Under the pieces are notes generated by a model. The model ran no database searches, was not told where the DNA came from, and saw nothing but the letters and a program-made list of their open reading frames with translations. The position numbers and the translations under genes are program-made. Of a stretch of 49,220 nt of DNA, positions 1,741-40,000 are shown one piece after another. The number at the start of each line of letters is the position of its first letter. The first letter of the stretch is position 1. Source of the stretch: Chromera velia (lineage: Eukaryota); NCBI GenBank assembly GCA_018398765.1, contig JAHBMJ010000381.1, positions 1 to 49,220 of the forward strand. Reading direction: 5' to 3'.

Positions 1741-1969
1741 CTATAGCGAAACTCTTTAATTTCGGCTCGCATTTAAGTTTCATCCTTGCACTCACTGGTC
1801 ACTGGTGACCACTGCATACCACTGCTGCATGGTTCTTGCATGTTCTTGTTTGATTGGCATTGCAGTTTCGTTTTGAGATCTATCTTTTCACTTTACTGAG
1901 ACTCAAGCCCCGCTCCTGCAATCAACCAGGCGGTAGACCGAGAGACCAGGAGACGCCGCGTATCTCAAG

Positions 1970-3500
1970 ATGACAAGCACTCAGGGAGAAGATCTCGGGG
2001 GAAAGGGCTTGTCCAAGGTCACGCTGGGTTCTTCGTATATGCCTGCATTCAAAGGGGCCTGTGAGGCAGCCGTGGAAGTCATGGAGAAGTCAGGAAAGCT
2101 GGATCTGACCGAGCTAACCAGTCTGATCAGGTGCTACAACCTGTCGGTGGAGACGGTGAGGAAGTTCTTCCCTGGTGCTACCAACAGCAAGGACATCCTC
2201 ACACAGCTTGACGCCACTCTGAAGCGTCTGGATGTTACTGGCGAGAACACTTTGTATGCCCAGTCTGTGTGTCCTGATGAGATCAACCATGAGGAAGGAG
2301 ACATCACTGACATCCTGGCCTCCTATATGGGGGAGGTGTTCCATCTGGGGGGTCTCGCCGGACTGCCCTTCACAGGAAGGACGGGATTTGCGGCCTTCTC
2401 TCACCACGTGCCTGATGGTTTGTCAACGATTCTTGCTCTCTGCTTGTTTGTGCGAGTGTGTGTTTGCGTGTGCGTGTGTTTGTGTGTCTGTGCTTCTCTC
2501 TCCTGCAAAAAGATAGTGTAAGATGTGGACGAGGGGCGCTAGGAGAGAGAGATTGGATAGAGGCAAAGACGCAATGAGAGTAACAACCAAGATCGTACGG
2601 TGAAGCATGTCACAGTATAACTACGAAGAGGTCCCAATTTGACTCCCAGAAAGGAAAGCAGACACGTGCATGACCAGAAAGAAAATTGAGGATGCGCATG
2701 ATACACTTGGGGTTTGGGGGTGGCAGTTTATTCACCGAGTCTTTCGATTCTCGTGTATGTCCAAAACAGCTTGATCACTTCTGTCAAGCCTCGATCACGA
2801 CCGAAAGCGAGACAGGGCCCCTTCGTCGTCACTGTAGTCCCCCGATTCTTTTATCCATCCATGTCCCTGATTTCCCCTCTTTGTGCATACGTGTGAGTGA
2901 GAGCAGGAGGCAATCTCTTCATCCTCATGGCCCCCCACATCGGCATCTCTGACTCCCACCAACTGGGGATGTACTCACGCGTAGGCCAGGAGAGAGACGG
3001 CACTGCGTGTGGTGCCGCTGTAGGTGCCCTCAAGGCTGCCTGCTCTCTTGACTCCCCCCTCACTTTGGAAAGCCTCGGAGGATGTTTTGAAGACTACCAG
3101 ATGAACTTTATCATCTCGGAGGTACAGAAGAGAAAGGACGAAATTTGCAAAGAACCAGAAGGCAACCCCAGACAGGCGGCCCTGATCCATGCCGTCTACG
3201 ACGTCTCGAAAAAGTTCCTCGACAACATCGTGTCAACGGAATTCGGTGATAGACAGGGAAAGCTCTTTCTCCTCTGCGGCGTGCAGGTCAGTCGATTCGC
3301 TCATTCAAATGTATGTGTGATGGGATACATTAATCCGCATGTATTCATACATGGAAATTGGCAAGCATAGCAACACCCTGGGAGAAAGCGTATACAGTCA
3401 ATCCTATGGTTTGCGCAGGCGCATTTTTTTCCTTGCTTGTCGCTCGTGTCAACAGGGGCGCTTGTGTGATTATTGGGGCGTGTCCTTTATGCCAATAGCA

Positions 3501-9512: not shown

Positions 9513-10184
9513 GTTTTTCTACCTTTCTTTCTTTGGAAGGTGGAAGAGCTCTGAGGCACACAAACAACGGCACGGAGAGGTGCGAGTTGCTCTCACAAAA
9601 GAAAGGTCTCCCTCAGCAGTGGTACTGTAACACAGTTGTTTTTCTTTCACTGTTGGATCAGCGATCAGCTTAATTCATTGCCAAAATTGTCCACCATTTG
9701 GCAACGCAAATGACAGCGACCGCCAATGGATGTGGAACTTTAGCCCGTCGTTGTCTGGGCAGGTCGGACGCGTGGTGAGGTGATGTAAGGTGACTATATA
9801 TTGGGAGTGGAATGGAGAGGAGGAAAGTTTTCTTGGAGACGGATCCACTCGAGCTCGTCTTTCTTGCCTGACAAACCATGACAAACCGTCTCGCCTCGCC
9901 GCGGGCTGAGAAATTTAATTTGTCAAAAAGTTTGTGGCGGACATATATAGTTTGCATGCGCATATTGCAGCGATGTGGCGCATGCAGTTTTTTTCGCGCG
10001 CAATTTGCGCGATCCGACAGAATTCGGCTTTGAATTCGGTGAGATCCGATTTTTCGCTTAATTGTGATGTTGACTGTTGCTCTGGAAGTAGCTTTGAAGA
10101 AGACTCTTAGAAGAGTCAAGCAAAGCTCCGATGCGTCAATCTGGCACCGCTTTGCGATTTGAAGTTTCCAATAACTCAGCCAAG

Positions 10185-13100
10185 ATGGGGTCGCCCTCAA
10201 AGATGATGTTGGGGGGTGCCCTTCTGAGCTGCTTGCTCAGTGTTGCTTTGAGTTTTCCGACAACAGTGCAGCTCCCTTCGGGAGGACTGGTGAATGGTCT
10301 CCAGGACCCTGACGAAGCAGTAGTCGCCTTTAAAGGCATCAGATACGCATATGCTCCTCGATTCTCTAGACCCACAGTGCTCACACACAAAGATGGTGAC
10401 TCACCCATCGATGCCTTTGAGTTCGGAGCAGCCTGCCCTCAATTGTGCTCTCCTTCTTTGCCTTCTTGGTGGTGTGCTGAGAAGATCTCTGATGACTGCC
10501 TGTTCCTGAACGTTTGGGTGCCTGAAGGCGCAAAGGCTCAGGATGACCTCCCTGTCCTCGTGTGGATGCACGGAGGGCTCTTCCTGGCAGGGAGCGCTTC
10601 TCTGGACTCACACGATGGCGCTGCTTTCGCTGCAATGACAGGTCAGTCAATTTCTTTCGTTCAGCATAGCTTTTTTGTCTTGCCCCTTCTCCTGCATATT
10701 GCCGAGGAAGAAGTGTGGGCAATAAGTAGGAGGAAGAGAAAGTACATAGAACGGGCTCCAAGGCGTGTGTATGCGGCCCCTGCGGGATATGATGCACACC
10801 ATGCATACTCTAATCCCTCTACACTTGCTGGTATGAATTCTTTTCCTGACAGCATTAGTCAAAGGTCCCGCCTTCTCTCCCTCCTTCCTTCCCCAAGCTC
10901 TTCCATTGTCATATCATTTCTCTCTCCCTCATGCCACCTTCCCCCCGCCCCGCAGTGCCTCTCTCCATAACCACCCTGGCCTCACTTCTCCCTTCCACCC
11001 AACTCAGCTGAACTTCTGCAAGGGCCTGGACTCCAAAAATGGTTTAGCATGCAGATCAAGTGACGCCGCAGATCCATGAATCAATCAGTCCTTGACAACA
11101 CCTTTTCTTTTCCGCAGGTGCCGTTGTGGTGACGATCAACTACCGACTCGGTGTAACGGGTTTCCTTACTACCCATGAGTGGCAAGGCGGGTTCGAGGGC
11201 AACAACGGGATCAGAGACCAACAGGCTGCTCTGAGATGGGTGCAGGATAACATCCAGGTCAGGGGGTCGATTGGTCGCTTGATCAGATTGCTTCAGCCTG
11301 TGTCATTCATAAAGCTACAAGCTGCAGCTGTGCTCGTGATTTTCATCTCCTCCTTCCACTTCCTCCTTTCTGCAGGCGTTCGGCGGTGACCCCTCGACCA
11401 TCACCCTGATGGGTGAGAGTGCGGGTGCCTCCTCGATTCTCTGTCATTTGGTGTCTCCATATTCCAAGGGCCTCTTCCACAGGGTGGTCATGCAGTCCCC
11501 TGCCATCCAGTCAACAAAGGACGTTGAGTTCTCTCAGAGAATGGGCGCAGCGACTGTGAGGTCCAAGTCTCTGAGGGACCACTGTGGCCCCCCCCCGAAG
11601 AGTATGTGGGACTATCTGGATGAGGTCGAGTATGAGAAGGAGTGGGGGAGTCCGAAGAAGGTGGAGGAGTGGATGCAGTGCGTGCAGAATGCGCCTCTGC
11701 CTTCGTGGCTCATTGCGGGGAGAGCAGGACGAACATGGGCCTCCATTCATGATATTTTCAACGCACTTCTGTCTTACGGGCCCGTAATTGATGGTGACGT
11801 CATCCCTGAAGACTGCTACGACGCCGTATCCGCAGGAAGATACGACCTGTCCATTCCCATCATCATCGGTACGTACGTGGAAGTTTTCAATAGATAAATG
11901 AAAAGGAGAAACCACAGTGAAGGGATCTGCGTGACGAATGTGTGTTTTACTTGATTTTTCAACGTGTGCCGTCTTTTGTCTCCTTTCGGAAAAAAGAGTG
12001 TCCAATTGTCCTCAATCCATCCCTCCGGGTTGCTTTCAGGAAACGACGGAGAAGAGGGACTTCCCTTCGTGCAGGGGGCCTACAGGATTCTTCCTTCAAA
12101 GTGGGTGAGTGAGTGAGTGAGTGAGTGAGGGAGTGAGTGAGTGAGGGAGTGAGTGAGTGAGTGAGTGAGTGAGTGAGGGAGGATGAAGAGTGGAGTCGCA
12201 GTGCATGAGAAAGGAAGATCAAGAACGAGGGAGAAAGACGTGAGGAAAGGAAAGGATCGAATTGACGGACAAGCGGTAGGAGGAGGAATTGGAGAGAGCG
12301 AGAGAGGCTCATGGGGGCATTGAAATAAATAGAAACAATGGGAAGGAATTGGAGGCTGCCGTTTACTCTTGGAGTAGCTCCGCATTCGTTTGCCAAGATG
12401 CTGTCGCCTCTGTCACCCTCTGATTGAGTTGAACCAAGCAACAGGATTTCTTGACGAACTGCACTGTACGCAGCTTTTTTTCTCTCATCTCTCGACTTAT
12501 TCATGTCTTTCCATCACTCAAACTACATGCATGCATGCATGCATCTCGCAGGTTTGCGGACAGACTGAGCAACGAATTCGGCTACGCACCTGGTACAAAA
12601 GATTTCGATAAGAGCAACAGGTCAGGCAAGAAAAGTCGGCGTGTACAGATGGCTGACGGTGCTTTTTTTTCATAGAGCTGACTTTCTGAACGCATTTGAA
12701 ATCCCCTTCGAGCAGCAGCTCGCTCTTGGGCGATCACAGTCTGTACTGAGTGAGTGATTTATCTCCCATCCCATTCATTCACTTTCTCTTCTGCAGGCTC
12801 CAGCACCTTCTTGCCCGTCTGGCTGTCCGTGTCCTCTGGGGAAAGGACGAGAGGGACAACATCCTGGGAGCCTATGGGGAGACGAAGGAGGAGATGGAAC
12901 CTCTCAGAAAGTCCAGCGAGGAGGAGTTCTGGGGACATGATTATTCTCAGTCAGTCAGTCAGTCAGGCAGGCAGGGAGGGAGGGGGGGAGGGAGGGAGGG
13001 AGTCATCCTTTGACAACTCTGCGAGACACGTTGTTAGGGAGGGTACATGCATGACCTTTTTTCCTCTGTTGATCACCTGCAGCCCTCTTCCCGAGCTTCC

Positions 13101-17414: not shown

Positions 17415-17953
17415 CTAAATTCCCTTCATCACTTTCATTCTCGGGTTTTTCCTTTTGTTTTCTTTCTTCTCCTTCTTTTCATCGAATTTGCGTCTTTGTT
17501 CTGGTGTCATCTTCTCATACGCCTCCTCTTCCTCTCTCTTCTTCTCCTGTCTCTTCTTCTCCTTCTCTTCCTCTCTCTCCTTCTCCCTCTCCTTTGCCTG
17601 CGCCTCCATCGCTTTCTTCCTCACGTCCGCCTGCTGCTGCAGCACCCGCGGATCCAGGCGGATGGCGGCCACTCGGTCCACCAAGGTGAAACAAAAGGTG
17701 AGTCCCTCAACGAGCTCCTCCAACCCCCTCCCTCCCCTCACAGCGCCAGGAGGAATCTTCAAGAGGACCTCCACCAGTCGGAGAGGACTACCTGTAGAGA
17801 GTGAGAATGTGGATGTACGAACGTGTCTGTTTGAATGGGTGAATGTGAGTGAGTCTGAGTGTGAGGGAGAGTGTGAGTGTAAGTGAGAGTCTGAGTGAGA
17901 AAAATCGTGAAGATGGGCATCTCTCTCCCTTGTCTTTTTCTCCTCCTCTGCCG

Positions 17954-17992
<39 letters not shown>

Positions 17993-18919
17993 GCAGAAAG
18001 AAAGGACGGAAGAACGAACACACAAAACACGAACACACCACGAACGAAAAAACAAAAGAACGAAAGACGGAACCGAAGGAAGGAAGAGAGAATGGAACGA
18101 AGAGAGAAGGGAAGGGAAGAAAGAAACAAAAAAACAAACAAAGACCGATACCACACTGGGTCAATGGAAAGACCTCAAAGGATTTCAACAAAAAAAACAA
18201 GGAGAAATGTAAGTATGGAGAAGAGCAAAAACAAAACCGACCCGAGAGAGACCCCGCGATCGATGACGACCTCTCCGCAGAAGCCGAGACCCCTGCTCCT
18301 GACATGTTCAGACCAGAAGAGGATGGCGAGGTCTGTCTCTGCAGTGCTGTTCCAGGAGAGGGTGCAGAGGGCATCCCCACGGCCTCAGAGGAGACGATCA
18401 AGTGCTGGATCAAACGCTCGTGCTCGGCCAGACCTTTCACAATCTGCACGGAGGGAGAGAGACACGCGGGGGGCGGGCAGAGCAGTCGGCATTCATCAAG
18501 CAACACTCGGGGACAAGTGAGCAATTAGGTCCTGTGCACACCCGCCGAATCGAGATGGTCTGAATTTTGACTTCCCTTTCACTCTTTACACAAACCGGAA
18601 TGGAGCTTGACGGCCCCCCTCGATCACCCCAGAGGTCTCTGTGCTCTCTTTCATTATCTGCATGCGTCTTCACTCTCCCTCTTTAATTTTCTTCCGTCAA
18701 CATCAGAACAAACGAGAGAGACGAACAGAACAAATCGACTGAGTGAGACGGGAGCATCGATTTTGCACGTGTGTGTCACTTTGAGTGAGAACGATTCCAA
18801 CATGAATAAGCGAAATGTCGGCAGCTCCCCCGTTCTTTACTCCACCCGACTGTCCAAGCAATTGGACTGCGAGCCCTCTCTCAACGAAAAGAATGGTGAA
18901 GACGGGCATTCCTCTCCCT

Positions 18920-19001
<82 letters not shown>

Positions 19002-20748
19002 CTTGCGTGTATGTGTGTCTGCGTGTGAAGGTGTGAACCCCCCCCCCCACTCTTGCTCTCTGGCCTTTACACGAACAGGCACACCCACTCACGGTAATCA
19101 AACTGTAGCACGGGCAACAGCAAAGAGGATACAAGCAGGGAAAGAAATGGCAAAGATACACGAATGAAGCGAATCACTCGAGACATGCACAGAAAAAAAA
19201 AACACCAAAAAGACTACCGACCGGGTCAGAGAGTACCTTCATCATGCCCTCATGGTTGTCTGCCAGAACTGACAGAGACGATGGGAGGCCTGCAAACCCA
19301 AACCCAAACAAACAGACAAACAGCAAAAGGCCAATTCCAGTAACTCATCGGGATACTTGCAGCCCCCCCTGACATTCAAGTGAGGGAGGACAGGGCGACA
19401 GAGGAGCGGAGAGAGAGATCGAGAGAGAGAAGGATTTGACAGATCTGTGGGGAATCTCGTTCTTATTAACAACCAGTGGACGAAAAACCAAAAAGCCGAC
19501 TATGCTCACAGACTGTATGTTTTTCTTCCCTCTCTTCTTCTTTGCACCGACACAGCCAAAAAGGAAAGGAAGAAGAGACCAAAGGTGGGTAGGATAAACA
19601 AACAAAAAGCTCACGATTCAAGCCAACAGGCAGACAGATAGACATAGACAGACCTGCCCTGGTTCTGCTCCTTGCAAGGTCCTTCAGGTCTATACAGTCC
19701 TCATGGAGCTTCTTCACGCTCTTGTTGCGACAGACCTGCAAGCACATGTACGGACATGGAGTGACGGGCTGCGGCAAAAGAACTTAAGTGTACAGCTGGC
19801 TCGAGAATTTGTGGAAAACAAAAACTGAATGCTTTCTCGCGGCACAGTTCATCTTCTTTCCTCATAAGTCCACTGTTCTTCCTTGCATGCACCTCTGCAA
19901 TACAGGTCTCAAATCCTCACCCTCCCATTTGGATGGTCTTTACTCCTTTTCCCGTTCACTTTCGTCGGGGCTAAAACAAAAGAAATCGAATTGGAAAAAA
20001 CAAAGCGAAAGTCGCAGTCACGCAGAGCGACACGCACACACCGACTCACCGCCACAACTAGTGGGTCCATCTGAGAGAGCTCAAATCGCAGTCGCAACAT
20101 GTCCCCCTGTGCCTGCCCGATGAGGCTCAAAAACACACTGGTCAGAAGATCCTGTCGGGGCTTCAGTTCGAAGGTACCAGTCACACAGTAGCAGTTCCTT
20201 CTCCCTGTGCAAAAAAATTCGTATGAGTCGTAGGAGACAAGCTCAAGAAAGTTCCCGCCCTCTTTGGTGTCCACGAAAGAGAAATTCTCTGCAAAAGACT
20301 CCCGAAGTCCCCTGGCGAGGCCTTCTGCTATTTTCTGATTCTCCCCGCTGCCCGTAAAGATCAGAACCAACGAGAGCACACACCACCCGAGGACCAAACT
20401 TTCACGCCAATAGAACGACATCATATCCTCAAAACTCATCGGAGGAGGGCGCGAATGTCCACCCGGTCGTCCCTGTCCCTGCGCCCCCCCTCCAGAAGGC
20501 ATACTGAAGGGAGGGTCGCCGTCTCCTCCGTATGAATTTTGTGTGTCCTCTTCAATGAACTGCACCGTGCCACCAGAACTGCTCTCATCCTCAGCAGCCG
20601 CTACAGGCAGAGGAAAAAAAGAAAAAGCTGGAGCTCTGCCCTGTCCTAAGGCATCCCGACTCAGGTCTGCGCAAAAGAAAATTACCACACAGACAACGCA
20701 GGACAGCAGAAACAGACGGGGTCGTAGTCCACGAGACGTCGTTTTCAT
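17415..20748 (-). CDS. CCDC47: PAT complex subunit CCDC47 (calumin/DUF1682) homolog, 5-6 exons, ~477 aa
   Basis: Exons 20748-20050, 19735-19654, 19289-19237, (18866-18846 microexon), 18443-18242, 17791-17415. N-terminal hydrophobic segment; TM followed by GSGENQKIA; YEFFCTGRRNC...ELKPRQDLL; charged coiled-coil tail ending KMTPEQRRKFDEKKEKKENKRKNPRMKVMKGI. Confidence 0.88.
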
Positions 20749-21023
20749 TTTCTGGTTCTGCGGAGCCGGCACACCTGTACACAGCCAGACACACTCTGGG
20801 CACAAGACAAAAAGACGAGCGCTGCGCTGCCAGAAAAGAGGGAGAGGAAAGATGGGGAAAGGGCGTTCCAATGAAAAAGGAAGCTAGGAGTGAAGATGAT
20901 CGATTGAAGATGAAAATCTATGAAAATCTCGACTCTCTGACAGCGCGAGATGCGCGCGGCACGCGAGGGCCGCCAAAAGCATGCATGCCAAAACTGAACG
21001 CGCACGCGCTTTTTTTTTCGTGG

Positions 21024-21104
21024 GTCGCGGAATGTCGCGGAATGTCGCGGAATGTCGCGGATGGTCGCGGAGTGTTGCGCAATATTGCGCAAGATTGCGC
21101 AAGA
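21024..21104. repeat. 10-bp-period tandem array in the divergent promoter region
   Basis: About 8 units grading from GTCGCGGAAT to ATTGCGCAAG; contains the perfect palindrome TTGCGCAATATTGCGCAA (21075-21092). Confidence 0.85.
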
Positions 21105-21553: not shown

Positions 21554-24550
21554 ATGACACGCTCCGTAGGCTCACCCCCGTCGTTCCGTTTGCTTTTGGT
21601 CAGCTTCTTCATTTTCCACATTGCCATTCAGCTATCCGCTGCCGCTGGAACTCCAAAGAAGGCAAAAGGAGAAGAACCCCAGCAGACGACAACCAACCCA
21701 AAAGGGCTCCTTAGAGGTTCCAAACAACTCCCAAGAGAGATCTACGCAACAACAGAAGCAGCACAAATCGGCACCGACCCATTTGACATTGAAGTAGAGA
21801 GAGCAGACATGGACAAAGGGGCCCATTCCATCAAGATTGGGGGACGTTTGGTGTTCGAAGAAAGAAGCAGAGAGACGAACCGCGAGTTCATCAGACAAGA
21901 AGCGTTGAAGAATTGGAAGTTTTTCGAAGATTTCACCTCCACAGACACAGGTCTCGTGGAAGATTCGGTCGACTTCTCTGACGTCGACCTAAGTTCCATC
22001 AACCCGAATGACCCTGCCTCCAGAACACAAGGGAGACGGGCAGAATACACCAGTCCCACAAACGTAGGCCTGTCCCTCACAGCCGTTGTTTCTGCATTTC
22101 AATTGGGGTTCATTGACAGGGCGGACGCCATTCGTCGCCTGTCTGCAACCCTGAACACTCTGAGTACAATGGACCACTGGAAGGGTTTGACATTCAACTG
22201 GATCACTGTACCAGAGGGGAATTCTCGAAGCAACTGGGTCTCCTCAGTTGACTCAGGCAACCTGATGGCATCCCTGTTGGTTGTCTCCGCAGCCTTTCCA
22301 GACGAGCTCCCCCAAGCTGACATGCTCTACAAACGTGCACAGTCAGCAGAGTCGCTCTGGAATACAGAGAGACAGCAATACAGAATCGGTGCCAATGTTC
22401 TCATTCCCGGCCTAGGCGCCAATCCCCTCCACAAGGACGTCCCTCTGGGAGAAGAGGGCAAGCAGAAGGGGGAAGAAGAGGGCCCACCTGTAGCGGCATC
22501 AGAAGAAGCACAAGAGAAGAAGGAGAAAAGCGAGACGGAGCAGGGAGAACAGGACTTCCCTGCAGTTCCCAGCATCTACCACTATGGTCAGTCTGCTGCC
22601 TGGGAGAGCAGTCTTTCTTTGTGGTTCCATGAGTACTCCAGACATCCCATAAGATTGATCAAGGCTTCTGTTCTCTCCTTATGTCTTCTTTGCTTCTGCT
22701 TCGATGGCTTCATTGATTCCACTAGATAGGGAAAAGGTGTGTTTCTGTGTGTAGGGAGGCAAGAAATCTCTTTGCGTACCTGTCTGCTTTTCTCACTGCC
22801 TTCACTCATCGACGGATTTCCCTCCCACCCCCAGTAGTTCTCATGACTTTCCTTCTTTCCTTTCCCTCTCTCTTGTTTTTGCAGCGGTGTTCAATTCAGA
22901 AGCACGCACCCTCTACTACCTAGCAGCAGCAGAGAGAGCAATCTCGCAGGAACAACTTGTTGAGGTCTGTCGAGAAAGAAAGACAGGGGGAGTTCTCTTG
23001 TGTGTCTGTCTCTGTCTCTTTCCTTCTCCACTGCTGCCTCCTCTTCGTTCCTTCCTTTCCACCAAGTATTTCGCTTTTTCGACCACTCCCGGAAATCTGG
23101 GAAAGGATCGAGGCCAAATTCTGTCTGTCCATATTCTTGTCTCTTGACCCTCTCCTTACGTCTCTCCCTTTTCTTTTCATATTAATATTTTGAAATCATA
23201 TTTGCCGTGCCTCGAGAGGGCTCCGATTGCCTTGTGTCAGTGAGTGACCTTCGCTGAGACGGCACCTCTTCACCGTCTCCCTTTGTCATGCAACATTCCG
23301 AAAGAGCCGCCTCTCCTCCTATTTACTTGTACTTGCGCACAGGGTCCAAACTTCACCCTCCCCGTCCCCGAGCCGGAAGAGTTCGGTTGGGGTCCTGTCG
23401 AGCCTCGGGAGATTTTCTTTGGTGGTCGGCCCGTGAACCTGGGCAGAAGCGGGAAGACTCTGTCGCCTACAGGTGGGTGAAGGGGAGAGGGCTTTTCTCT
23501 TTCCTTCTCGCTCTCGCTTTCTCTGCCTCTCTCTTTCTCTCCCTCTCTCCCTTCATCTCTCTGTGTCTGTATACGTGTGTAAACTCGAGTAAATCACTTT
23601 CTGCCTTTTTGCAGGCGGAGCCTACTATGTGACTGCCCTCGGTGAGCGTGTGCTGGCCTTGCTCCCTTCCTGGGGAGGCAGCGCTTTCGAGACGATGCTT
23701 CCCTCCCTGTTTGTGGACGAGTGGGCACTCTGCAGGTCTGTCTGCATGTCTGTCTGTCTGTTTGTCTGTCTGCCTGTACAGGAGAAGAAGAAACATACAG
23801 TCTGTCTGCATGTTTACGCGGATACTGGTGTACATTGAAATGGAGAGACAGTGAAGGACAGGGTCAAAAAGGGCTTTGCATCTGTTGATTTCCGGGTCTA
23901 AGAGAAGATTGCAAGAGTTTCATCTCTTTTTGTGTCCTTCCAAAAGGAGTCTGCATGGCCCCATCAGGAAGAAAAGAGAGGATCAGTTTGGTTTTTGAGA
24001 ATCTCCTCTGTGGTCTCGATGATTCAATGTGTCTTTCCCCCGTCCTCTCCGAGCGCCTCTGCCTGCCTTCCCTCGACAACAAAATTTTCTCCAGCACGCC
24101 TCACCTCTCTTCTTCTTCTTGTCCCGCCATCTCTACCTTTTCAGACCTTTTTCACTTCTTCTCTTTCACCCCCCTTCCCCTTCTTCTCTCTCTGCCCTTC
24201 CAGAGGCAGAGGGGAGAGCCGAACCCAGGGCCAGGGCCTGGCAGCCAATCAGGTGGCCCAGTACAGTGCTCAGAGACTGCAGGCCATCGAGATCGGGCAC
24301 ACGCTGTGGGGCTACTCGCCTGCGAGACGTCTGGATGGAACCTATGGGGAGATGGGCGTGTCGGTCGCAGGAATCAAAGGGTCCGTCAGTAGAGTAGAGT
24401 AGAGAGACAGAGGGCAGGGAGAAGTGTATGTGCCGCTGGGGACTTTCTGGGAGATTGAGGTGCAAAACTGAAATATGCATACAGAGACGGAGGTAGGAAG
24501 GCAGATAGACAGACAAAAGAGAGAGAGATTGACGCACACACAAACATCAA

Positions 24551-24593
<43 letters not shown>

Positions 24594-24596
24594 CGC

Positions 24597-24631
<35 letters not shown>

Positions 24632-25404
24632 AAGACAGAGAGAGAGAAACACAATGCTTGCTTTTTGATGTGTCCTTTCTTGTTTTGTTTTGTTTTGTTT
24701 TTAGTCCTGCTTCCATTTATTAGAGTCAGAAAAATCCCCGCAAAGGACACTTTCTCCTCTTCGTGAGTGTCGTGAAAGCTGTCTAGCCAATCTGAGATCC
24801 ATGCGGTCTTGTTTGAGCATGTGAATGAGTGTAAGGAGTGCAATCTGTCTGCTTTCACCTTTTCTTCTCTCTCTGTGCATGATGCAGGTACAGACCCACC
24901 GACGTGACCCCCCACGCCTCCATGGTGTTCCTCGAGATCGATCCCGACGCGGTCGTGGCCAACTGGAGGAAGCTGTACGATCCTGAATACGCACAGACAA
25001 CAGGAGCGGTGCACCCGGTGTACGGTCCTTTCGACGCGGTGCCGCCCCAGAGGCACGAGAAGGCGCGGAGGGAGAGGGAGAGACTGGAGTTGGAGAGAGA
25101 CGATGGCAGCGGGTCCGAGAAGCAAGCAGCAGAGCACCCAGGGAGACGGCACCCGGGGGTGGCACTTCCCGTGTTGCTTTCTTTGGATGTAGGTATGCAA
25201 TTTCTTTCGATGAGTAACTACCTGCTTGCTGGGACTGGGAAGAGTCCCAAGGAGCTGTTGATGTCAACAATGGGGGACACCCTCGCCGAGGGGGGTATGA
25301 TGCTTTGGGACAAGGTGATATTCGACCAGGCAGGGGAGGAGGCTCTAGTTGCTGCAGCTCTCGAACTGCAGAGGGTAGATGGGGGGGGTGACGCGGTCTT
25401 TTAG
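21554..25404 (+). CDS. Secreted glycoside hydrolase/transglycosylase resembling the cyclization domain of cyclic beta-1,2-glucan synthase (GH189/DUF3131/'glucoamylase-family'), 6 exons, ~685 aa
   Basis: In-phase exons 21554-22586, 22885-22964, 23343-23472, 23615-23735, 24204-24380, 24888-25404. Signal peptide; ordered motifs NWKFFE, YTSPTNVGL, GLTFNW, VSSVDSGNL, HY...SEAR, SWGGSAFETMLPSLF, LWGYS, YGEMGV, VTPHAS, YGPFDA, LDVGM...NYL. Confidence 0.85.
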
Positions 25405-25623: not shown

Positions 25624-26198
25624 AGAAAAAAGAGAGAGACAAATCAAAAGGACTGGTGCGTGCCTCTAGAGAGCAAGACGGAGGAGGGTGTCTGGCTGTT
25701 TTTGCTGCTCTTTGCTCTGATCCTTCGCCTCCTCTTCCGACTTCATGCGACATCATTCTATTAATATTTAGAAAGGGAATGCAGGGAATCAAACGGTTGA
25801 AAGCAACAACAACATCAACAAACTCTACCACTTTTCTTTCTCACTCCCCCTCTCCTCTTTTCCTGTTTTCTCTTTCCCTTCCTGCTTTTCCACCCCTCTC
25901 CCATCCGGCAGGCAAAGAAAAAAGAGAGAGACAAATCAAAAGGACTGGTGCGTGCCTCTAGAGAGCAAGACGGAGGAGGGTGTCTGGCTGTTTTTGCTGC
26001 TCTTTGCTCTGATCCTTCGCCTCCTCTTCCGACTTCATGCGACATCATTCTATTAATATTTAGAAAGGGAATGCAGGGAATCAAACGGTTGAAAGCAACA
26101 ACCACATCAACAAACTCTACCACTTTTCTTTCTCACTCCCCCTCTCCTCTTTTCCTGTTTTCTCTTTCCCTTCCTGCTTTTCCACCCCTCTCCCATCC
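25624..26198. repeat. Tandem direct duplication, 2 x 283 bp (25624-25906, 25916-26198)
   Basis: Near-identical copies at offset 292, separated by a 9-bp spacer GGCAGGCAA. Confidence 0.95.
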
Positions 26199-30305: not shown

Positions 30306-33300
30306 AGTTAGTTAGTTAGTTAGTTAGTTAGTTAGAAGATGCCTAACCCCAGTAACTGTTGGAGCGCTAAGCTCCCGGGCGGCATATACATGCATGGTTG
30401 TTGTTTGTTAAGTCGCCGGTGGAGTTGATCAGTTAATCACTTTCTAGAATAGAAAGAGAAGCATCAAAGAGACAGAGCGTAGAAGCGATCGAATGACATT
30501 ACAGATAAAGAGTTCAGATATACTTGCACCGGGGAGTGGACAGTTACAATCATTTAAATTAATGGATTCCAGCTCAGCCAGGCAGTGCAGGAATTCTCTT
30601 TCATCCAGCTACTTGGCACATGAAGAAAGTCTATGCATGAAGTCATCAACATACTGAATACAAGAATCATGTACACAGAGTTTGTGGTCGCTACATTCAA
30701 AAGACAGAGCACTGCTTTCGCCTTGTGGTTTAAATAAGAGCAGACGTAAGAAACCGAACAGAGAGCTGTCGGTTACTATGAGAACAGATCGAGGGAGAGC
30801 AGAAAAGGAGTAGAGACTAGAGGCGGATTTATTGTAAAGAAGAAACATAAACATGCGATGAGAGGAGGGAAAAGCTTGTTGAAGGGGGGTGAGCTTGGCA
30901 AGAGGAGGGAAATGTGAAGAAGCGATATTAGCCCCCGCCCGCCGCGTGCAGACCTCTTCCATAACTGTATGTCTAGCTCTGCCCTTAAAAAAGAGAGAGC
31001 CGGTTCCATGAACTCTCTGTCACTGCTGTCCGCTGGTGCTAGGGTGTTGCAGCACTCCCACCCCTAACGAACAAACAAAATCCAGACCAGCCCAACGAAG
31101 CAGCCACAAGGAGGCTCTCAAAAACTCTGGACAAGTGTTTCTCTTCCAGCTTGGCACGTAGCATTGCAGCGGGAACGGTATGCATGGTTTGTGAGAGCGA
31201 GCACCACCAGTCGGCCACTTTAGAGCAAAGCAGGGCTTTTGCAGGAAGCAGGCCGAAAATACACAGGGAGGGCAAACGAAGACTGCGAGCAGGCAGACGG
31301 CCAGACCAGCGTGCAAAACGGAGCTGCAAAGCATCGATTGCAAGAAGATCGGCATCACAAAGAGGGAAGGATTCGAGGCAGTACAGTATAACAGAGGACC
31401 AACATGCTTTAAAAATAGTCATTTACGTATCTACACTGAGGGAATCTATGCTGGCAATCAGACCAAACACAGCCCCCAGCGTGCAGGAGGCCGAAGCAAT
31501 ACGCAATTCAACTGTCTCACTGAGGCTTCCCCCCTCAAAGAACAGGCACCCCAGGTACTTGTATTCCGTTGCCTATTCAACCTCTTTCCCTTCATATTGT
31601 AACACCACCACACTGGAGCTTTTCCCAAATGCAGAGGCAGACAGGCGAAGAATCTTTGTCTTTTTCAGATTAACTGTAAGTCTCCATTCTTTGCAATACT
31701 TCTCGAGAGCAGAGAATTTCTTTTGAAGGTCTGAGACGGAATGGCCAAGAAAGCAGAGATCGTCAGCATAACTCAAACTGTCCAGGATACAATCATCTAG
31801 CAAAACTCGCTCCGGCTCACTTTCTGGCTCCTCTCCACTGCCCGTTTCCATTTCAGAATCTAATATGTCTGCCCGCTCTCGCTCTACTGCCTCGCTGGTA
31901 TGCCTTGCCTCGCTCTTCTAGCTCGCTCTTGCTTGCAGAACACACACGGGGGAGATCATTTATGTACAAAAGAAAAAGAATAGGCGAGAGGGCATCCCCT
32001 TGCTTCACTCCAGTGCCCTCCCAAAAATGTAGAGAGTCCCCGTCAACCTTGCCCCATACCTCTCTGTACATTTCACAGATCATGCAGATGTCTGCCTCAC
32101 TCACACCTTCATTTCTCAGTTTCTGAATTAACTTTGCTCTCGGCACAGTGTCAAACGCCTTTGAAAAGTCAACAAAACCTGCTAACAGAGCCTTTCTTTT
32201 CTTTTTACATGAAGAAACAACAGAGACAAGAGCACCGACCCCCTCTCTGAGGCTCGTTCCCACCCCTTCACGGAACCCTAGCTGTTTGAAGTTAAGACAG
32301 ACCTGGGAATGCATACGGCAGTCCATCAGGAGGCCGAAAAGTTTTGCAAAAGGGTTTACAACATGGATTGGTCTCCATTCGTTAGGAGAGGGGGAAGCAG
32401 CCTGAGGGCCTTTCAGAACTAGGCAAATGTGCAAAACGTTCCATGAAGGAGGCCAGCAAGCATGAATATGCATCAGGGCTAGGCATCAAATTAAATAAAA
32501 CAAAAAGTAAAAAGCGGGAGAGAGCAGATTTGGCAAAGCAGAGATCTAGCTGTGCAAAAGAGATGCCTTCAAGGCCAGTAGCTTTCTTCTTGTTCATTTT
32601 CTTCAGGTGGGAAGAGATCTGGTGAAAAGAGAAGGGCAGAGCAGAGGGGTGGAAGGGAGGAGAGGCAGGGGGATGGACCAAAGGGAGAGGCTCCTTGTTC
32701 AGATCTTCAAAAACACCCGCCCAATAGTTCAAAAATATGCGGGAGGACGGGCATGATACACCACCAGCCGACGAGGCGGCTTTCTTCTTCCTTTTCCAAA
32801 GGGAGAGAGGATCCTTGAGGAATTCTTCTTGAACCCTCTGTGCTTCTTTCTTCTTCTAAGCAGCCTGTTTGCGTTTAAAGAGGCTACGGCGGACCCGGAG
32901 TAGTCTCTGAAGGCGATCGAATTCCAATCCTCTCCCACCCATATCTCTCACCAACTTCCAAACGCGGTCCGCCTCTCTTACTTCCTTTTGTATGGACTTA
33001 CATTCTTCATCAAACCAAGCCTCTTTCATTCTACGCTTAACCCCCAACCCAAACCTTGCTCCGTTCTTTTTCAGTTTCACAGGCCCAACGAGCAGTCGAG
33101 ACCACTCCTGGACAAATCTGAGGAGGCAAGCATGACTGTCCTTGGCCCCCCCTTGCGGAGAAAAGAGGGGATCAGGCGAGTCAGGGGGGCAGAAGAGAAA
33201 GGGCGGGAGGATTCGGGAGGGGGAGGAGGGACAGGCGGCTCTACAAAAGGCTCAATCTAGTTGTGATATTCCCATAGACCCAGCCAGCGCTATTCTACGA

Positions 33301-34879
33301 ATCTTTTGACTGCAGCTGCCAACAGTGCAAGCTCTTCATCTGATATGGGGGTGGAGCGGTTAGAACAGAAGAGCAAAGGGCATTCAGAGAGGTTCTGGTG
33401 GGGCAGAAGGGCGTCTTCTTGCTCTGGTTTGATTGAAGGGGGGCAGAGGGAAAAAGAGACAGATGCGTGGTCAAGGGAGGCAATACCATCAAATTTAACC
33501 TTCTAATCAGCGATCTTCTTAACAACAGAGGGGTCAGTTAACATATAATCTATGACGGAGGTGGGCTTTGACATCTGCGACTGTCTGGAGTAATGCGTAC
33601 AGAGACCAGGGAAGTCAAACTCTTTTCCACCCACTTTTTCTTTCAATCCGTTCAGGGGGACAAGGTTCGAATCGCTGCAGAGCTGAATAAAATTCTTTCC
33701 GCAGGGCTTGACTTCTTGTATACATTCAGAGGACCGTTTGAACAACGGTGTGTCTGCTTCAGTTTTGGGCCCCTCCCCTACAATACTACCATCTCCATTG
33801 CCTCCCCCCTCAAAAGGCTCCTCACTGCTACCAGACTCATTGGGCAGAAGAAGGAGATCTGTACAGGACCAGAGAAGATTCTCGGGTAAAAGGGAGCCTA
33901 TATGTGTGTTGCAGTCCCCAACCACAACTCTATCGACATCCAGAGGGACCCCTCCAAAAAGGTTACTCAAATGGCCAGAGACCTTGTTGTCTCTGTGATC
34001 TAACCAGGAGCCAAGCAGGTAGACGCCAAAGATGTGAACCCTTCTAGAACCCCCTAACAGAACTTTTGTTTCCATTATACTGGGGCCGACCAACAAGATT
34101 TCAGGTTTCAATTCGCTCCATCTTTCTTCTTAAACTAACATACAAACTCCCCTAGTTTTCAATTCCCTGTCATGTGCTGCCCTACGCGTGCCCAACTGCC
34201 GCCGGTACCATTCTCTGTAACAGTCACTGAAATTCTTTCCCTTCCACCCCTTACACAAAACGTCCCTCATAACCTCTGACATATCTGTCAAGATTACAAT
34301 ATTGCAATCAATCTCATTTAGCCAACAAGCGAGGGAACCGTCCTCTTCCCTGGCCTTCAGGCCGGCAACATTTAGGGTAACAATCTTTACTCTCCCATCC
34401 CGGGCCCTAATTGCAGCTAAAACCTTCCTTTCTACCATCTTCCTTCTCTCTCTCCAAAAAGCTCTTCTCAATTCTTCCGAATGCTTCAAATTATCTGCTG
34501 ACTCCCACAAATACGAAAAAGCAGGGCCCCAATTTTAATCCATATAATACTCCCTCTACTCCCCTTCATTGATGTGAGTGTCTAACACCTACACCACCTC
34601 CCACTCCGTCTCCAAAGCAACCAAGCCCCCTGCTTCCCCCGGCTGATCTAGCTGAGACTCTCGGGACGCGACGCCTGCCCTCTTGCTTTCTCTTCTTTTC
34701 TTCCCCCTTCCTTTTCTACGATTCTTCCTCTCTGCCCCACATAAAAGAGACGGATCCAAATAAAAAGACTCTAGAGAGGCTTAGCTGCAGGGGGGGGAAG
34801 AAGACAAAAAGTCAGGTACGATATCAGAGGCAAGAGGGGAGAGAGTCGAGTCGGAAAGAGAGGAGAGGGACTTACCTGC
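30306..34879 (-). mobile_element. Non-LTR retrotransposon (LINE), chromodomain-APE-RT, inactivated, copy A
   Basis: APE motifs KIVTLNVAGL, IFGVYL, VVVGDCNTHIG, IDYML, SLDH. RT motifs WRPIHVVN, QLGFR, FVDFSKAFDTV, GVKQGDALSPILF, YADD. 3' tail (CTAA)n at 30306-30335. In-frame stops and frameshifts. Confidence 0.95.
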
Positions 34880-37019: not shown

Positions 37020-40000
37020 AGTTAGTTAGTTAGTTAGTTAGTTAGTTAATTAGTTAGAAGATGCCTAACCCCAGTAACTGTTGGAGTGCTAAGCTCCCGG
37101 GCGGCACATATATGCATGGTTGTTGTTTGTTAAGTTGCCGGTGGAGTTGATCAGTTAATCACTTTCTAGAATAGAAAGAGAGGCATCAAAGAGACAGAGC
37201 GTAGAAGCGATCGAATGACATTACAGATAAAGAGTTCAGATGTACTTGTACCGGGGAGTGGATAGTTACAATCATTTAAATTAATGGATTCCAGCTTAGC
37301 CAAGCAGTGCAGGAATTCTCTTTCATCCAGCTACTTGGCATATGAAGAAAGTCTATGCATGAAGTCATTAACATACCGAATACAAGAATCATGTACACAG
37401 AGTTTGTGGTCGTTACATTCAAAAGACAGAGCACTGCTTTCGCCTTGTGGGTTAAATGAGAGCAGACGTAAGAAACCGAACAGAGAGCTGTCGGTTACTA
37501 TGAGAGCAGATCGAGGGAGAGCAGAAAAAGAGTAAAGACCAAAGGTAGATTTATTGCAAAGAAGAAACACAAACATGCGATGAGAGGAGGGAAAAGCTTG
37601 TTGAAGGGGGGTGAGCTTGGCAAGAGGAGGGAAATGTGAAGAAGCGATATTAGCCCCCGCCCGCCGCGTGCAGACCTCTTCCACAACTGTATGTCTAGCT
37701 CTACCCTTAAAGAAGAGAAAGCCAGTTCCATGAACTCTCTGTCACTGCTGTCCGCTGGTGCTAGGGTGTTGCAGCACTCCCACCCCTAATGAACAAACAA
37801 AATCCAGACCAGTCCAACGAAGCAGCTGCAAGGAGGCTCTCGAAAACTCTGGACAAGTGTTTCCCTTCCAGCCTGGTACGCAGCATTGCAACAGGAACGG
37901 TATGCATGGTTTGCGAGAGCGAGCACCACCAACCGGCCACTCTAGAGCAAAGCAGGGCTTTTACAGTAAGCAGGCCGAAAATACACAGGGAGGGCAAACG
38001 AAGACTGCGAGCAGACAGACGGCCAGACCAGCGTGCAAAACGGAGCTGCAAAGCATCGATTGCAAGAAGATCAGCATCATAAAGAGGGAAGGATTCGAGG
38101 CAGTATAGTGTGACAGGGGACCAACACGCTTTAAAAATAATCATCTGCGTATCTACACTGAGGAGATCTATGCTGGCAATCAGACCAAACACAGCCCCCA
38201 AGGCGCAGGAGGCCAAAGCAATATGCAATTCAACTATCTCACTAAGGCTTCCCCCCTCAAAGAACAGGCACCCCAGGTACTTGTATTCCGTTGCCTATTC
38301 AACCTCTTTCCCTTCATATTGTAATACTACCACACTGGAGCTTTTCCCAAATGCAGAGGCAGACAGGCAAAGAATCTTTGTCTTTTTCAGATTAACTGTA
38401 AGTTTCCATTCTTTGCAATACTTCTCGAGAGCAGAGAATTTCTTTTGAAGGTCTGAGACGGAATGGCCAAGAAAGCAGAGATCGTCAGCATAACCCAAAC
38501 TGTCCAGGATACAATCATCTAGCAAAACTCGCTCCGGCTCGCTTTCTGGCTCCTCTCCACTGCCCGTTTCTATTTCAGAATCTAATATGTCTGCCCGCTC
38601 TCGCTCTACTGCCTTGCTGGTATGCCTTGCCTCGCTCTTCTAGCTCGCTCTTGCTTGTAGAACACACACGGGGGAGATTATTTATGTACAGAAGAAAAAG
38701 AATAGGCAAGAGGGCATCCCTTTGCTTCACTCCAGTGCCCTCTCGAAAATGTAGAGAGTCCCCGTCAACCTTGCCCCATACCTCTCTGTACATTTCACAG
38801 ATCATGCAGATGTCTGCCTCACTCACACCCTCATTTCTCAGTTTCTGAATTAACTTTGCTCTCGGCACAGTATCAAATGCCTTTGAAAAGTCAACAAAAC
38901 CTGCCAACAGAGCCTTTCTTTTCTTTTTGTACGAAGAAACAACAGAGGCAAGAGCACCAACCCCCTCTCTGAGGCTCGTTCCCACCCCTTTACGGAACCC
39001 TAGCTGTTTGAAGTTAAGACGGACCTGGGAACGCACACGGCAGTCCATCAGGAGGCCAAAAAGTTTTGCAAAAGGGTTTACAACATGGATTGGTCTCCAT
39101 TCATTAGGAGAGGGGGAAGCAGCCTGAGGGCCTTTCAGAACTAGGCAAATGCGCAAAACGTTTCATGAAGGAGGCCAGCAAGCATGAATATGCATCAGGC
39201 TAGGCATCAGGTTAAATAAAACAAAAAGTAAAAAGCGGGAGAGGGCAGATTCGGCAAAGCAGAGATCTAGTTGTGCAAAAGAGATGCCTTCAAGGCTAGC
39301 AGCTTTCTTCTTGTTCATTTTCTTCAGGTAGGAAGAGATATAGTAAAAAGAGAAGGGCAGAGCAGAGGAGTGGAAGGGAGGAGAGGCAGGGAGATGGACC
39401 AAAGGGAGAGGCTCCTTGTTTGGATCTTCAAAAACACCCGCCCAATAGTTCGAAAATGCGCGGAAGGACGGGCATGATACACCACCAGCCGATGAGGCGG
39501 CTTTCTTCTTCCTTTTCCAAAGGGAGAGAGGATCTTTGAGGAATTCTTCTTGAACCCTCTGTGCTTTTTTCTTCTTCTAAGCAGCCTGTTTGCGTTTAAA
39601 AAGGCTACGGCGGACCCGGAGTGGCGATCGAATTCCAATCCTCTCCCACCTACATCTGTCACCAACTTCCAAACGCGGTCTGCCTCTCTCACTTCCTTTT
39701 GCATGGACTTGCATTCTTCATTAAACCAAGCCTCTTTCATTCTACGCTTAACCCCCGACCCAAACCCTGCTCCGTTCTTTTTCAGTTTCACAGGCCCAAC
39801 GAGCAGTCAAAACCACTCCTGGATAAATCTGAGGAGGCAAGCGTGACTGTCCTTGGCCCCCCCTTGCGGGGAAAAGAGGGGATCAGGCGAGTCAGAGGGG
39901 TCAGAAGAGAAAGGGCGGGAGGATTTGGGAGGAGGAGGAGGGACAGGCGGCTCTACAAAAGGCTTAATCTAGTTGTGATATTCCCATAGACCCGGCCAGC

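What the first reader, a model, noticed from the sequence alone, without database searches (positions are those of the whole stretch)
21554..25404. Intron-containing, secreted eukaryotic homolog of the bacterial cyclic beta-1,2-glucan synthase cyclization domain
Seen: a six-exon ORF with a signal peptide and the full ordered motif series TSPTN, SSVDSGNL, SEAR, SWGGSxFE, WGxS, TPHAS, YGxxDA, LDxGM. Established (from memory): these motifs mark the middle domain of Cgs/NdvB/ChvB (GH189, related to GH144 beta-1,2-glucanases) and stand-alone bacterial DUF3131 proteins; the Glu residues in SEAR and SxFE are the reported catalytic pair, and both are retained. No glycosyltransferase or GH94 domain is attached. 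Inference: a bacteria-to-protist transfer, now domesticated, giving an extracellular enzyme that cleaves, transglycosylates or cyclizes beta-1,2-glucans, which are known as bacterial osmoadaptation and host-interaction molecules. I know of no characterised protist member.
Basis: partly seen in the sequence, partly recalled or inferred. Interest (0 to 1): 0.8.

Follow-up and report, generated by a model that had tools for sequence, protein, structure and literature searches.

The report
Algal GH193-type beta-1,2-glucanase, not a cyclase
The coral-associated alga Chromera velia has a real, spliced and transcribed gene, likely taken from bacteria, whose protein is predicted to cut rather than cyclize beta-1,2-glucan sugars, because it lacks the catalytic residue that ring-forming enzymes need.

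Summary
The gene is real. Six exons and five GT-AG introns give 685 aa, identical to Chromera velia Cvel_17055. Contigs from four probable RNA runs of one study confirm introns 1-3. In the characterised cyclization domain TiCGS, SEAR holds the acid/base (E1356), SxFE an auxiliary Glu (E1400), and the nucleophile E1442 lies in WGISE. Chromera reads WGYSP there (Pro494), like the inverting hydrolase SkSGL (GH193, WGFSP). It has the GH189 letter at only 1 of 12 GH189-specific columns, scores 258 versus 169 bits on Pro-type versus GH189-type profiles, and falls outside GH189 in trees (100/99). It keeps the GH193 acid (E350), candidate base (D233) and clan Phe/Tyr. Best reading: a secretory-pathway, inverting endo-beta-1,2-glucanase of GH193 type, probably acquired from prokaryotes; the donor is unresolved. 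No other eukaryotic hit turned up in my searches, but protists are already listed with other SGL-clan families. Activity is untested. Moderate interest.

The parts
21554..22586 (+). Exon 1: signal-peptide-like N-terminus, disordered linker, first half of the barrel (TSPTN, W216, SSVDSGNL with D233), acidic low-complexity insertion
21554..21646 (+). Predicted signal peptide or signal anchor (residues 1 to about 31); no Phe right after the likely cleavage site, so plastid targeting is unlikely
   Evidence: hydropathy; helix; Phe rule PMC6668581 passages; inferred
22250..22252 (+). Asp233, equivalent of SkSGL D160, candidate general base of GH193
22587..22884 (+). Intron 1 (298 nt, GT..AG)
   Evidence: joint in 4 of 4 runs
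22885..22964 (+). Exon 2: SEAR motif with Glu350 (22899-22901), the general acid (SkSGL E246, TiCGS E1356)
22965..23342 (+). Intron 2 (378 nt, GT..AG)
   Evidence: joint in 4 of 4 runs
23343..23472 (+). Exon 3: mostly an insertion with low model confidence (residues 372-415)
23473..23614 (+). Intron 3 (142 nt, GT..AG)
   Evidence: loose end reads into exon 4 in 4 of 4 runs
23615..23735 (+). Exon 4: SWGGSAFE with W434, clan Phe439 and auxiliary Glu440 (TiCGS E1400, not the nucleophile)
23736..24203 (+). Intron 4 (468 nt, GT..AG)
   Evidence: frame and motif continuity; database model; not RNA-checked
24204..24380 (+). Exon 5: WGYSP with Pro494 (24319-24321) at the GH189 nucleophile position; clan Tyr502
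24381..24887 (+). Intron 5 (507 nt, GT..AG, with CA and GA microsatellites)
   Evidence: not RNA-checked
24888..25404 (+). Exon 6: TPH, YGPFDA, charged insertion 572-605, LSLD (GH193-type; GH189 has MAHH), C-terminal helices, stop

Best explanation
This is a spliced and transcribed Chromera velia gene, likely of prokaryotic origin, that encodes a stand-alone (alpha/alpha)6-barrel enzyme predicted to enter the secretory pathway and to act as a GH193-type, anomer-inverting endo-beta-1,2-glucanase. By analogy with SkSGL and TfSGL (inferred), Glu350 protonates the scissile oxygen through the 3-OH of the +2 glucose, Asp233 is the candidate base, and Tyr502/Trp216 stack the -3 glucose. With Pro494 in place of the GH189 nucleophile, no covalent intermediate can form by the GH189 route, so the product would be sophoro-oligosaccharides, not rings. 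The likeliest role (inferred) is digestion of bacterial beta-1,2-glucans outside the cell or in a vacuole by a mixotrophic alga.
For: Residue mapping: 8WY1 chain = residues 1005-1591 plus Met and tag, offset 1003. W1109, E1356, W1394, E1400, E1442 and Y1456 then all fall on the expected letters; E1442 is the Glu of WGISE and aligns with P494. SkSGL reads SSVD...SETR...WGGSMFE...WGFSP...TPH...LSLD, with D and E 86 apart as D160/E246. Among 184 non-redundant homologous domains, 87 have Glu at the nucleophile column, and of these 87 have Y at 523, 84 H at 613 and 85 H at 614. The other 97 mostly have P (83), H (78), L (92) and D (94), the letters Chromera has. GH189 letter at 1 of 12 GH189-specific columns; 48 of 62 columns conserved in non-GH189 rows kept. 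Profile scores 258 (Pro-type) vs 169 bits (Glu-type); C-half 129 vs 39. IQ-TREE, 58 rows: the Glu-type side excludes the query, 100/99. With five diagnostic columns dropped, nesting in the canonical Cgs clade is rejected, p-AU 0.02. The top 17 Foldseek rows shown are all SGL-clan (E 1e-15 to 7e-7), then a drop to 2e-4. Splicing and transcription. Eukaryotic neighbours (CCDC47, LCIB-type carbonic anhydrase, reverse-transcriptase fragments) argue against contamination. Of 6 bacterial loci inspected, two have GH94 plus a sugar-binding protein next door, one a full sugar ABC transporter and one a MalK-type ATPase.
Against: No activity data. Long end branch (2.04 changes/site), at most 34-36% identity to any relative, and no supported sister group. 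A position sister to all Glu-type domains is not rejected (p-AU 0.305); with the diagnostic columns dropped the Glu/non-Glu split falls to 75/90 in the 25-row tree. SkSGL itself was not in my trees; actinobacterial relatives with the same motifs stood in. 14 of 62 conserved columns are changed, including an Arg (V379), a Gln (V615) and a Trp (N236, the GH189 letter); the median relative keeps 59. Four large insertions lie in the domain. The N-half alone scores equally on both profiles. Nine differences between run contigs and window are 3 synonymous and 6 non-synonymous, no signal of purifying selection (p 0.36), though 5 of 6 lie outside the conserved core (p 0.10).
Confidence: 0.65

Rival explanations
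1. A GH193-derived glycoside hydrolase whose specificity has drifted to another glucan or glycoconjugate of the alga or its coral host, for example in wall or cyst remodelling.
For: Long branch; 14 of 62 conserved columns changed; four insertions; one SGL-clan group (Group 4) keeps the clan residues yet has no beta-1,2-glucan activity (PMC12102758).
Against: [quoted passage not shown] Subsite residues W216, W434, F439, Y502 and both acids are kept. Divergent bacterial members keep as few as 43-48 of the 62 columns.
Confidence: 0.2
2. One reading: a GH189-like transglycosylase that cyclizes or disproportionates beta-1,2-glucan.
For: Best PDB sequence hits are TiCGS and Cgs; SGN motif as in GH189 (N236); N-half scores 136 vs 134 bits; sister position to GH189 not rejected.
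Against: Nucleophile Glu is Pro494, and E1442Q/A mutants of TiCGS are inactive. The His-His pair is Leu-Asp; 1 of 12 GH189-specific letters. No GH193 entry appeared in my PDB sequence or fold hits, so Cgs is the nearest by default. N-half ties also occur in ordinary Pro-type proteins.
Confidence: 0.04
3. [quoted passage not shown]
For: No excess of synonymous differences among 9 variants; divergence and insertions.
Against: Both acids and the pocket aromatics are retained; the frame is intact over six exons; transcribed and spliced in four runs; core modelled at pLDDT above 90 for 315 residues.
Confidence: 0.1
4. Bacterial contamination or a gene-model artefact.
For: All named relatives are prokaryotic.
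Against: Five spliceosomal introns, three seen spliced; eukaryotic neighbours on the same stretch; GC3 0.63 against 0.54 in the neighbouring CCDC47 exon.
Confidence: 0.01

Closest known systems
GH193 (Group 2 of the SGL clan), founding member SkSGL of Sanguibacter keddieii (PMC12102758)
   Same: Stand-alone (alpha/alpha)6 domain behind a signal peptide; same motif series including WGxSP, TPH, D-type YGxxD and LSLD; acid E350 = E246; candidate base D233 = D160; no nucleophile.
   Different: Eukaryotic host, five introns, 34-36% identity at best to any relative, N instead of the usual W at 236, V379 and V615 at conserved Arg and Gln columns, four long insertions, no Ig-like or carbohydrate-binding domain; activity untested.
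[quoted passage not shown]
   Same: Fold; TSPTN, VDSGN, SEAR (acid/base E1356), SxFE (E1400), W1109, W1394 and Y1456 equivalents.
   Different: Nucleophile E1442 is Pro; the His-His pair is Leu-Asp; no long helical insertion (Asp-to-Glu spacer 117 aa, of which about 50 are a low-complexity insert, against 229); no synthase or GH94 domain. 66 of 74 Glu-type rows come from proteins over 1000 aa, against 0 of 80 Pro-type rows.
GH162 (TfSGL of Talaromyces) and its uncharacterised protist homologues
   Same: Eukaryotic SGL-clan beta-1,2-glucanase with the same fold (6IMU, E 9e-10) and the same acid route.
   Different: About 10% identity, a different general base and His in place of the clan Phe; a separate family already listed in fungi, dinoflagellates, ciliates and Naegleria.
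GH144, GH192, GH194 (CpSGL, EeSGL1, PgSGL3)
   Same: Fold and proposed inverting mechanism; EeSGL1 8XUJ is the top Foldseek hit.
   Different: 12-16% identity; different motif set.

Membership tests
SGL clan | (alpha/alpha)6 barrel of GH144/162/189/192-194 type | tested here: met
   AlphaFold model pTM 0.78; top Foldseek rows all SGL clan
SGL clan | Glu/Phe/Tyr triad (XcSGL E239, F286, Y367) | tested here: met
   E350, F439, Y502. E and Y mapped through TiCGS numbering; the Phe mapping is inferred from order and conservation
GH189 | Nucleophile Glu (TiCGS E1442) | tested here: not met
   P494
GH189 | Acid/base Glu (E1356) | tested here: met
   E350 in SEAR
GH189 | His-His pair near the nucleophile (H1536/H1537) | tested here: not met
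   L613-D614 at the column where 84-85 of 87 Glu-type rows have His; that this column is H1536/H1537 is inferred
GH189 | Extra helices between alpha4 and alpha5 | tested here: not met
   Spacer 117 vs 229 aa; weak test, because 9 of 16 Glu-type rows also have spacers under 90
GH189 | Inside the GH189 clade | tested here: not met
   Excluded at 100/99; nesting in canonical Cgs rejected, p-AU 0.02
GH193 | General acid and candidate base (SkSGL E246, D160), no nucleophile Glu | tested here: met
   E350, D233, P494
GH193 | Sequence signature closer to Group 2 than to GH189 | tested here: met
   258 vs 169 bits; the control sorted 132 of 132 held-out Pro- and Glu-type domains correctly; 11 of 12 GH189-specific letters absent
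GH193 | Nested with support inside the Group 2 clade | tested here: inconclusive
   On the non-GH189 side but in an open fork; sister-to-GH189 placement not rejected, p-AU 0.305; no GH144/192/194 outgroup and no SkSGL in the tree
GH193 | Endo hydrolysis of beta-1,2-glucan with anomer inversion | not testable with these tools
   needs assay

The most novel reading that the evidence does not exclude
Chromera took a GH193 beta-1,2-glucanase from prokaryotes, gave it five introns and a eukaryotic signal peptide, and now secretes it to destroy or harvest the cyclic beta-1,2-glucans that bacteria use as osmolytes and host-interaction signals in the coral microbiome. It would be the first eukaryotic GH193 and a second, independent route to beta-1,2-glucan breakdown in alveolates beside GH162, implying that this 'rare' glucan matters in marine symbioses or that the alga makes one itself.
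Probability: 0.25. Interest if true: 0.7.

Novelty: new member of a known kind. Interest (0 to 1): 0.4.

Why it matters
It corrects an attractive but wrong label (eukaryotic cyclic-glucan cyclase) and gives a testable one. GH193 was defined in 2025 with one biochemically studied member and is described as bacterial. An intron-bearing, transcribed copy in a photosynthetic relative of apicomplexans extends it to eukaryotes and suggests that beta-1,2-glucans are worth digesting in the alga's habitat. The surprise is limited, because other SGL-clan families are already listed in protists and single-gene transfers of glycoside hydrolases into protists are common (own knowledge).

Tried and rejected
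No whole genome is held, so the search for a synthase partner, paralogues or a beta-1,2-glucosidase in Chromera could not be run. No run is on record as RNA. The first laying of runs on a 4.6-kb stretch showed only fragments and no joints; a shorter stretch gave the spliced contigs. The AU test on 58 rows under the mixture model did not finish and was redone on 25 rows with LG+G4. Mosaic GH189 N-half plus GH193 C-half: rejected, since ordinary Pro-type proteins such as P0145, P0184 and P0002 give the same N-half tie. Naming a donor: rejected; the nearest rows by path are Omnitrophota, the highest identity is to Bacillus or P0002, and no grouping is supported. The FastTree join with P0237 was a long-branch meeting, and that row was left out of later trees. 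Helical insertion as a GH189 marker: weak in this data set. Purifying selection from strain variants: not shown. Literature: no paper with Cvel_17055 in the library; not in the one supplement file of PMC6668581 or in 12 of 16 files of PMC4501334 (4 not searched); Chromera and Vitrella absent from the 4 supplement files of PMC12102758. Earlier scan notes held nothing on this sequence or genome; those found by words concern other genomes.

Full report
Observation. Exons 21554-22586, 22885-22964, 23343-23472, 23615-23735, 24204-24380 and 24888-25404 join through five GT..AG introns into 685 codons without a stop, with all eight motifs in order. The product is identical to P0001, labelled Chromera velia CCMP2878 Cvel_17055, 'DUF3131 domain-containing protein'. 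In 4 of 4 runs of one study (kind guessed as RNA), single contigs of 2.6-3.5 kb skip exactly 298 and 378 nt (introns 1 and 2) and run from the end of exon 3 into exon 4 letters. Introns 4 and 5 were outside that stretch. The neighbours are eukaryotic: CCDC47 head-to-head, a carboxylesterase, an LCIB-type carbonic anhydrase and reverse-transcriptase fragments. Contamination is excluded.

Fold. The AlphaFold model from an 80-row alignment has pTM 0.78 and 315 residues at pLDDT 90 or more. The best Foldseek rows in PDB are all SGL-clan enzymes: EeSGL1, Cgs, TiCGS, GH144s, TfSGL and PgSGL3 (E 1e-15 to 7e-7). Unrelated (alpha/alpha)6 epimerases start at 2e-4. The ESM Atlas gives only PF10091/DUF3131 clusters, all listed as bacterial.

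The catalytic residues were misassigned. PMC10834661 (parts 3-4 and passages read) names E1442 as nucleophile (E1442Q/A inactive), E1356 as acid/base, E1400 as an auxiliary Glu and H1536/H1537 as supports of the nucleophile. The 8WY1 chain is residues 1005-1591, and the supplement of PMC12102758 starts TiCGS at residue 1012; both give offset 1003 to the chain numbers. Counting by hand from those outputs: SEAR Glu = 1356, SWSGTMFE Trp/Glu = 1394/1400, WGISE Glu = 1442, and the following Tyr = 1456. So the SxFE Glu is not the nucleophile. Chromera has WGYSP, with Pro494 at that place.

It has the GH193 signature. PMC12102758 (text parts 1-6 of 11 and supplement passages read) defines GH193 as the group nearest GH189, made of inverting endo-beta-1,2-glucanases, with SkSGL E246 as acid and D160 as candidate base. 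SkSGL reads SSVD, SETR, WGGSMFE, WGFSP, TPH and LSLD, matching Chromera D233, E350, F439/E440, P494, H523 and L613-D614. I gathered 374 proteins (and member look-ups), cut out 318 full domains and reduced them to 185 at 60% identity, the query included. Of the 184 others, 87 have Glu at the nucleophile column and nearly all of these carry Y523, E563 and H-H; the other 97 mostly carry P, H, D and L-D, as Chromera does. Chromera has the GH189 letter at 1 of 12 GH189-specific columns and keeps 48 of 62 columns conserved in non-GH189 rows; the median relative keeps 59 and the lowest 43. It scores 258 bits on a Pro-type profile and 169 on a Glu-type profile; the same profiles sorted all 132 held-out Pro- and Glu-type domains correctly. 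The N-half alone ties, as it does in some ordinary Pro-type proteins.

Phylogeny. In a 58-row IQ-TREE (LG+C20), the 16 Glu-type domains form one side of a branch at 100/99 without the query, which sits on a long branch (2.04) in an open fork. In a 25-row tree without five diagnostic columns, nesting in canonical Cgs is rejected (p-AU 0.02) but a place sister to all Glu-type rows is not (0.305). So 'not GH189' is firm, 'GH193-type' rests mainly on signature residues and profile scores, and no donor can be named.

Distribution. A phmmer search of 1.84 billion representatives found 2460 hits, the best at 4e-40 and all at 45% identity or less over the matched stretches among the 150 listed. Word-based searches of the 90% clusters gave 156, 20 and 2 hits; P0001 was the only listed row with a EukProt source. 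Of 29 other proteins looked up, those with an organism name were Elusimicrobiota or a haloarchaeon; most have none. The genome scan kept the best 80 of 552 prokaryotic loci: Omnitrophota, Bacillota, Actinomycetota, Proteobacteria and others. I therefore found no eukaryotic orthologue, but Vitrella and colpodellids could not be searched directly. Transfer from prokaryotes is the simplest reading; ancient presence with many losses is not excluded. Chromera and Vitrella are absent from the family paper's supplements, which do list Symbiodinium, Polarella, Paramecium and Naegleria under GH162, and Plasmodiophora under GH144. I did not read the Group 2 list in full.

Mechanism and role. Shown: gene structure, splicing of three introns, residue identities, and fold by prediction. 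Inferred from SkSGL and TfSGL: E350 as acid acting through the +2 3-OH, D233 as base, inversion, and endo cleavage to sophoro-oligosaccharides. Inferred from hydropathy: entry into the secretory pathway. C. velia plastid proteins keep a Phe right after the cleavage site (PMC6668581, passages), which this protein lacks, so the plastid is unlikely; outside, vacuole or membrane anchor are all open. Of six bacterial loci checked, two Omnitrophota loci have a GH94 phosphorylase and a sugar-binding protein adjacent, one Cellulomonas locus has a sugar ABC transporter, one has a MalK-type ATPase, and two show nothing related. This fits a catabolic family. Chromera is coral-associated and reported as mixotrophic, so feeding on or clearing bacterial beta-1,2-glucans is the most economical role, but nothing here tests it. 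Changed pocket columns and insertions at 144-158, 286-337, 384-423 and 572-605 leave room for drifted specificity. Nine variants in the run contigs give no selection signal.

Verdict. A real and expressed eukaryotic member of the beta-1,2-glucanase clan, GH193-type and predicted to hydrolyse, not a cyclization domain. I found no description of the gene and no eukaryotic GH193 in the papers seen (PMC12102758 as above; passages of PMC11842490 and PMC12369401); subscription papers and unsearched supplements may bear on this. New member of a known kind in a new host domain; interest 0.4.

Noticed in passing
window 25627-25906 and 25919-26198: A 280-nt direct duplication with one mismatch just downstream of the stop codon; a recent tandem duplication or an assembly artefact in the likely 3' UTR.
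   Followed up: partly
window 17418-20883 (-) and 21030-21100: A CCDC47 (PAT complex) gene lies head-to-head with the glucanase, about 800 nt between start codons; the gap holds short 10-nt tandem repeats, a possible shared promoter.
   Followed up: no
window 1937-3367 (+): Intron-split LCIB/LCIC-type beta-carbonic anhydrase (PF18599), a carbon-concentrating gene in Chromera.
   Followed up: no
window 10098-11894 (+): Carboxylesterase (PF00135) with a signal-peptide-like start, split by introns.
   Followed up: no
window 31856-34129 (-) and 37764-39806 (-): Two near-identical broken retroelement copies with reverse-transcriptase domains, probably non-LTR.
   Followed up: no
P0144 (2707 aa): A bacterial-type protein with two short Glu-type (GH189-like) domains flanking a GH94 domain and a signal-like N-terminus; both barrels branch at the base of GH189 and have altered SxFE motifs. 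A possible synthase-free phosphorylase-cyclase.
   Followed up: partly
P0141 (891 aa): Two GH193-type domains in tandem; best hit after the query itself.
   Followed up: no
P0163: GH193-type protein in the haloarchaeon Natronoarchaeum philippinense, so the family is also in archaea.
   Followed up: no
alignment: 9 of 16 Glu-type (GH189) domains lack the long helical insertion published as a GH189 hallmark (spacers 63-89 aa).
   Followed up: partly
L027:434-8283 and L057:392-7565: Conserved Omnitrophota cluster: sugar-binding protein, GH94 phosphorylase, GH193-type protein with an N-terminal extra domain, ROK-family regulator.
   Followed up: partly
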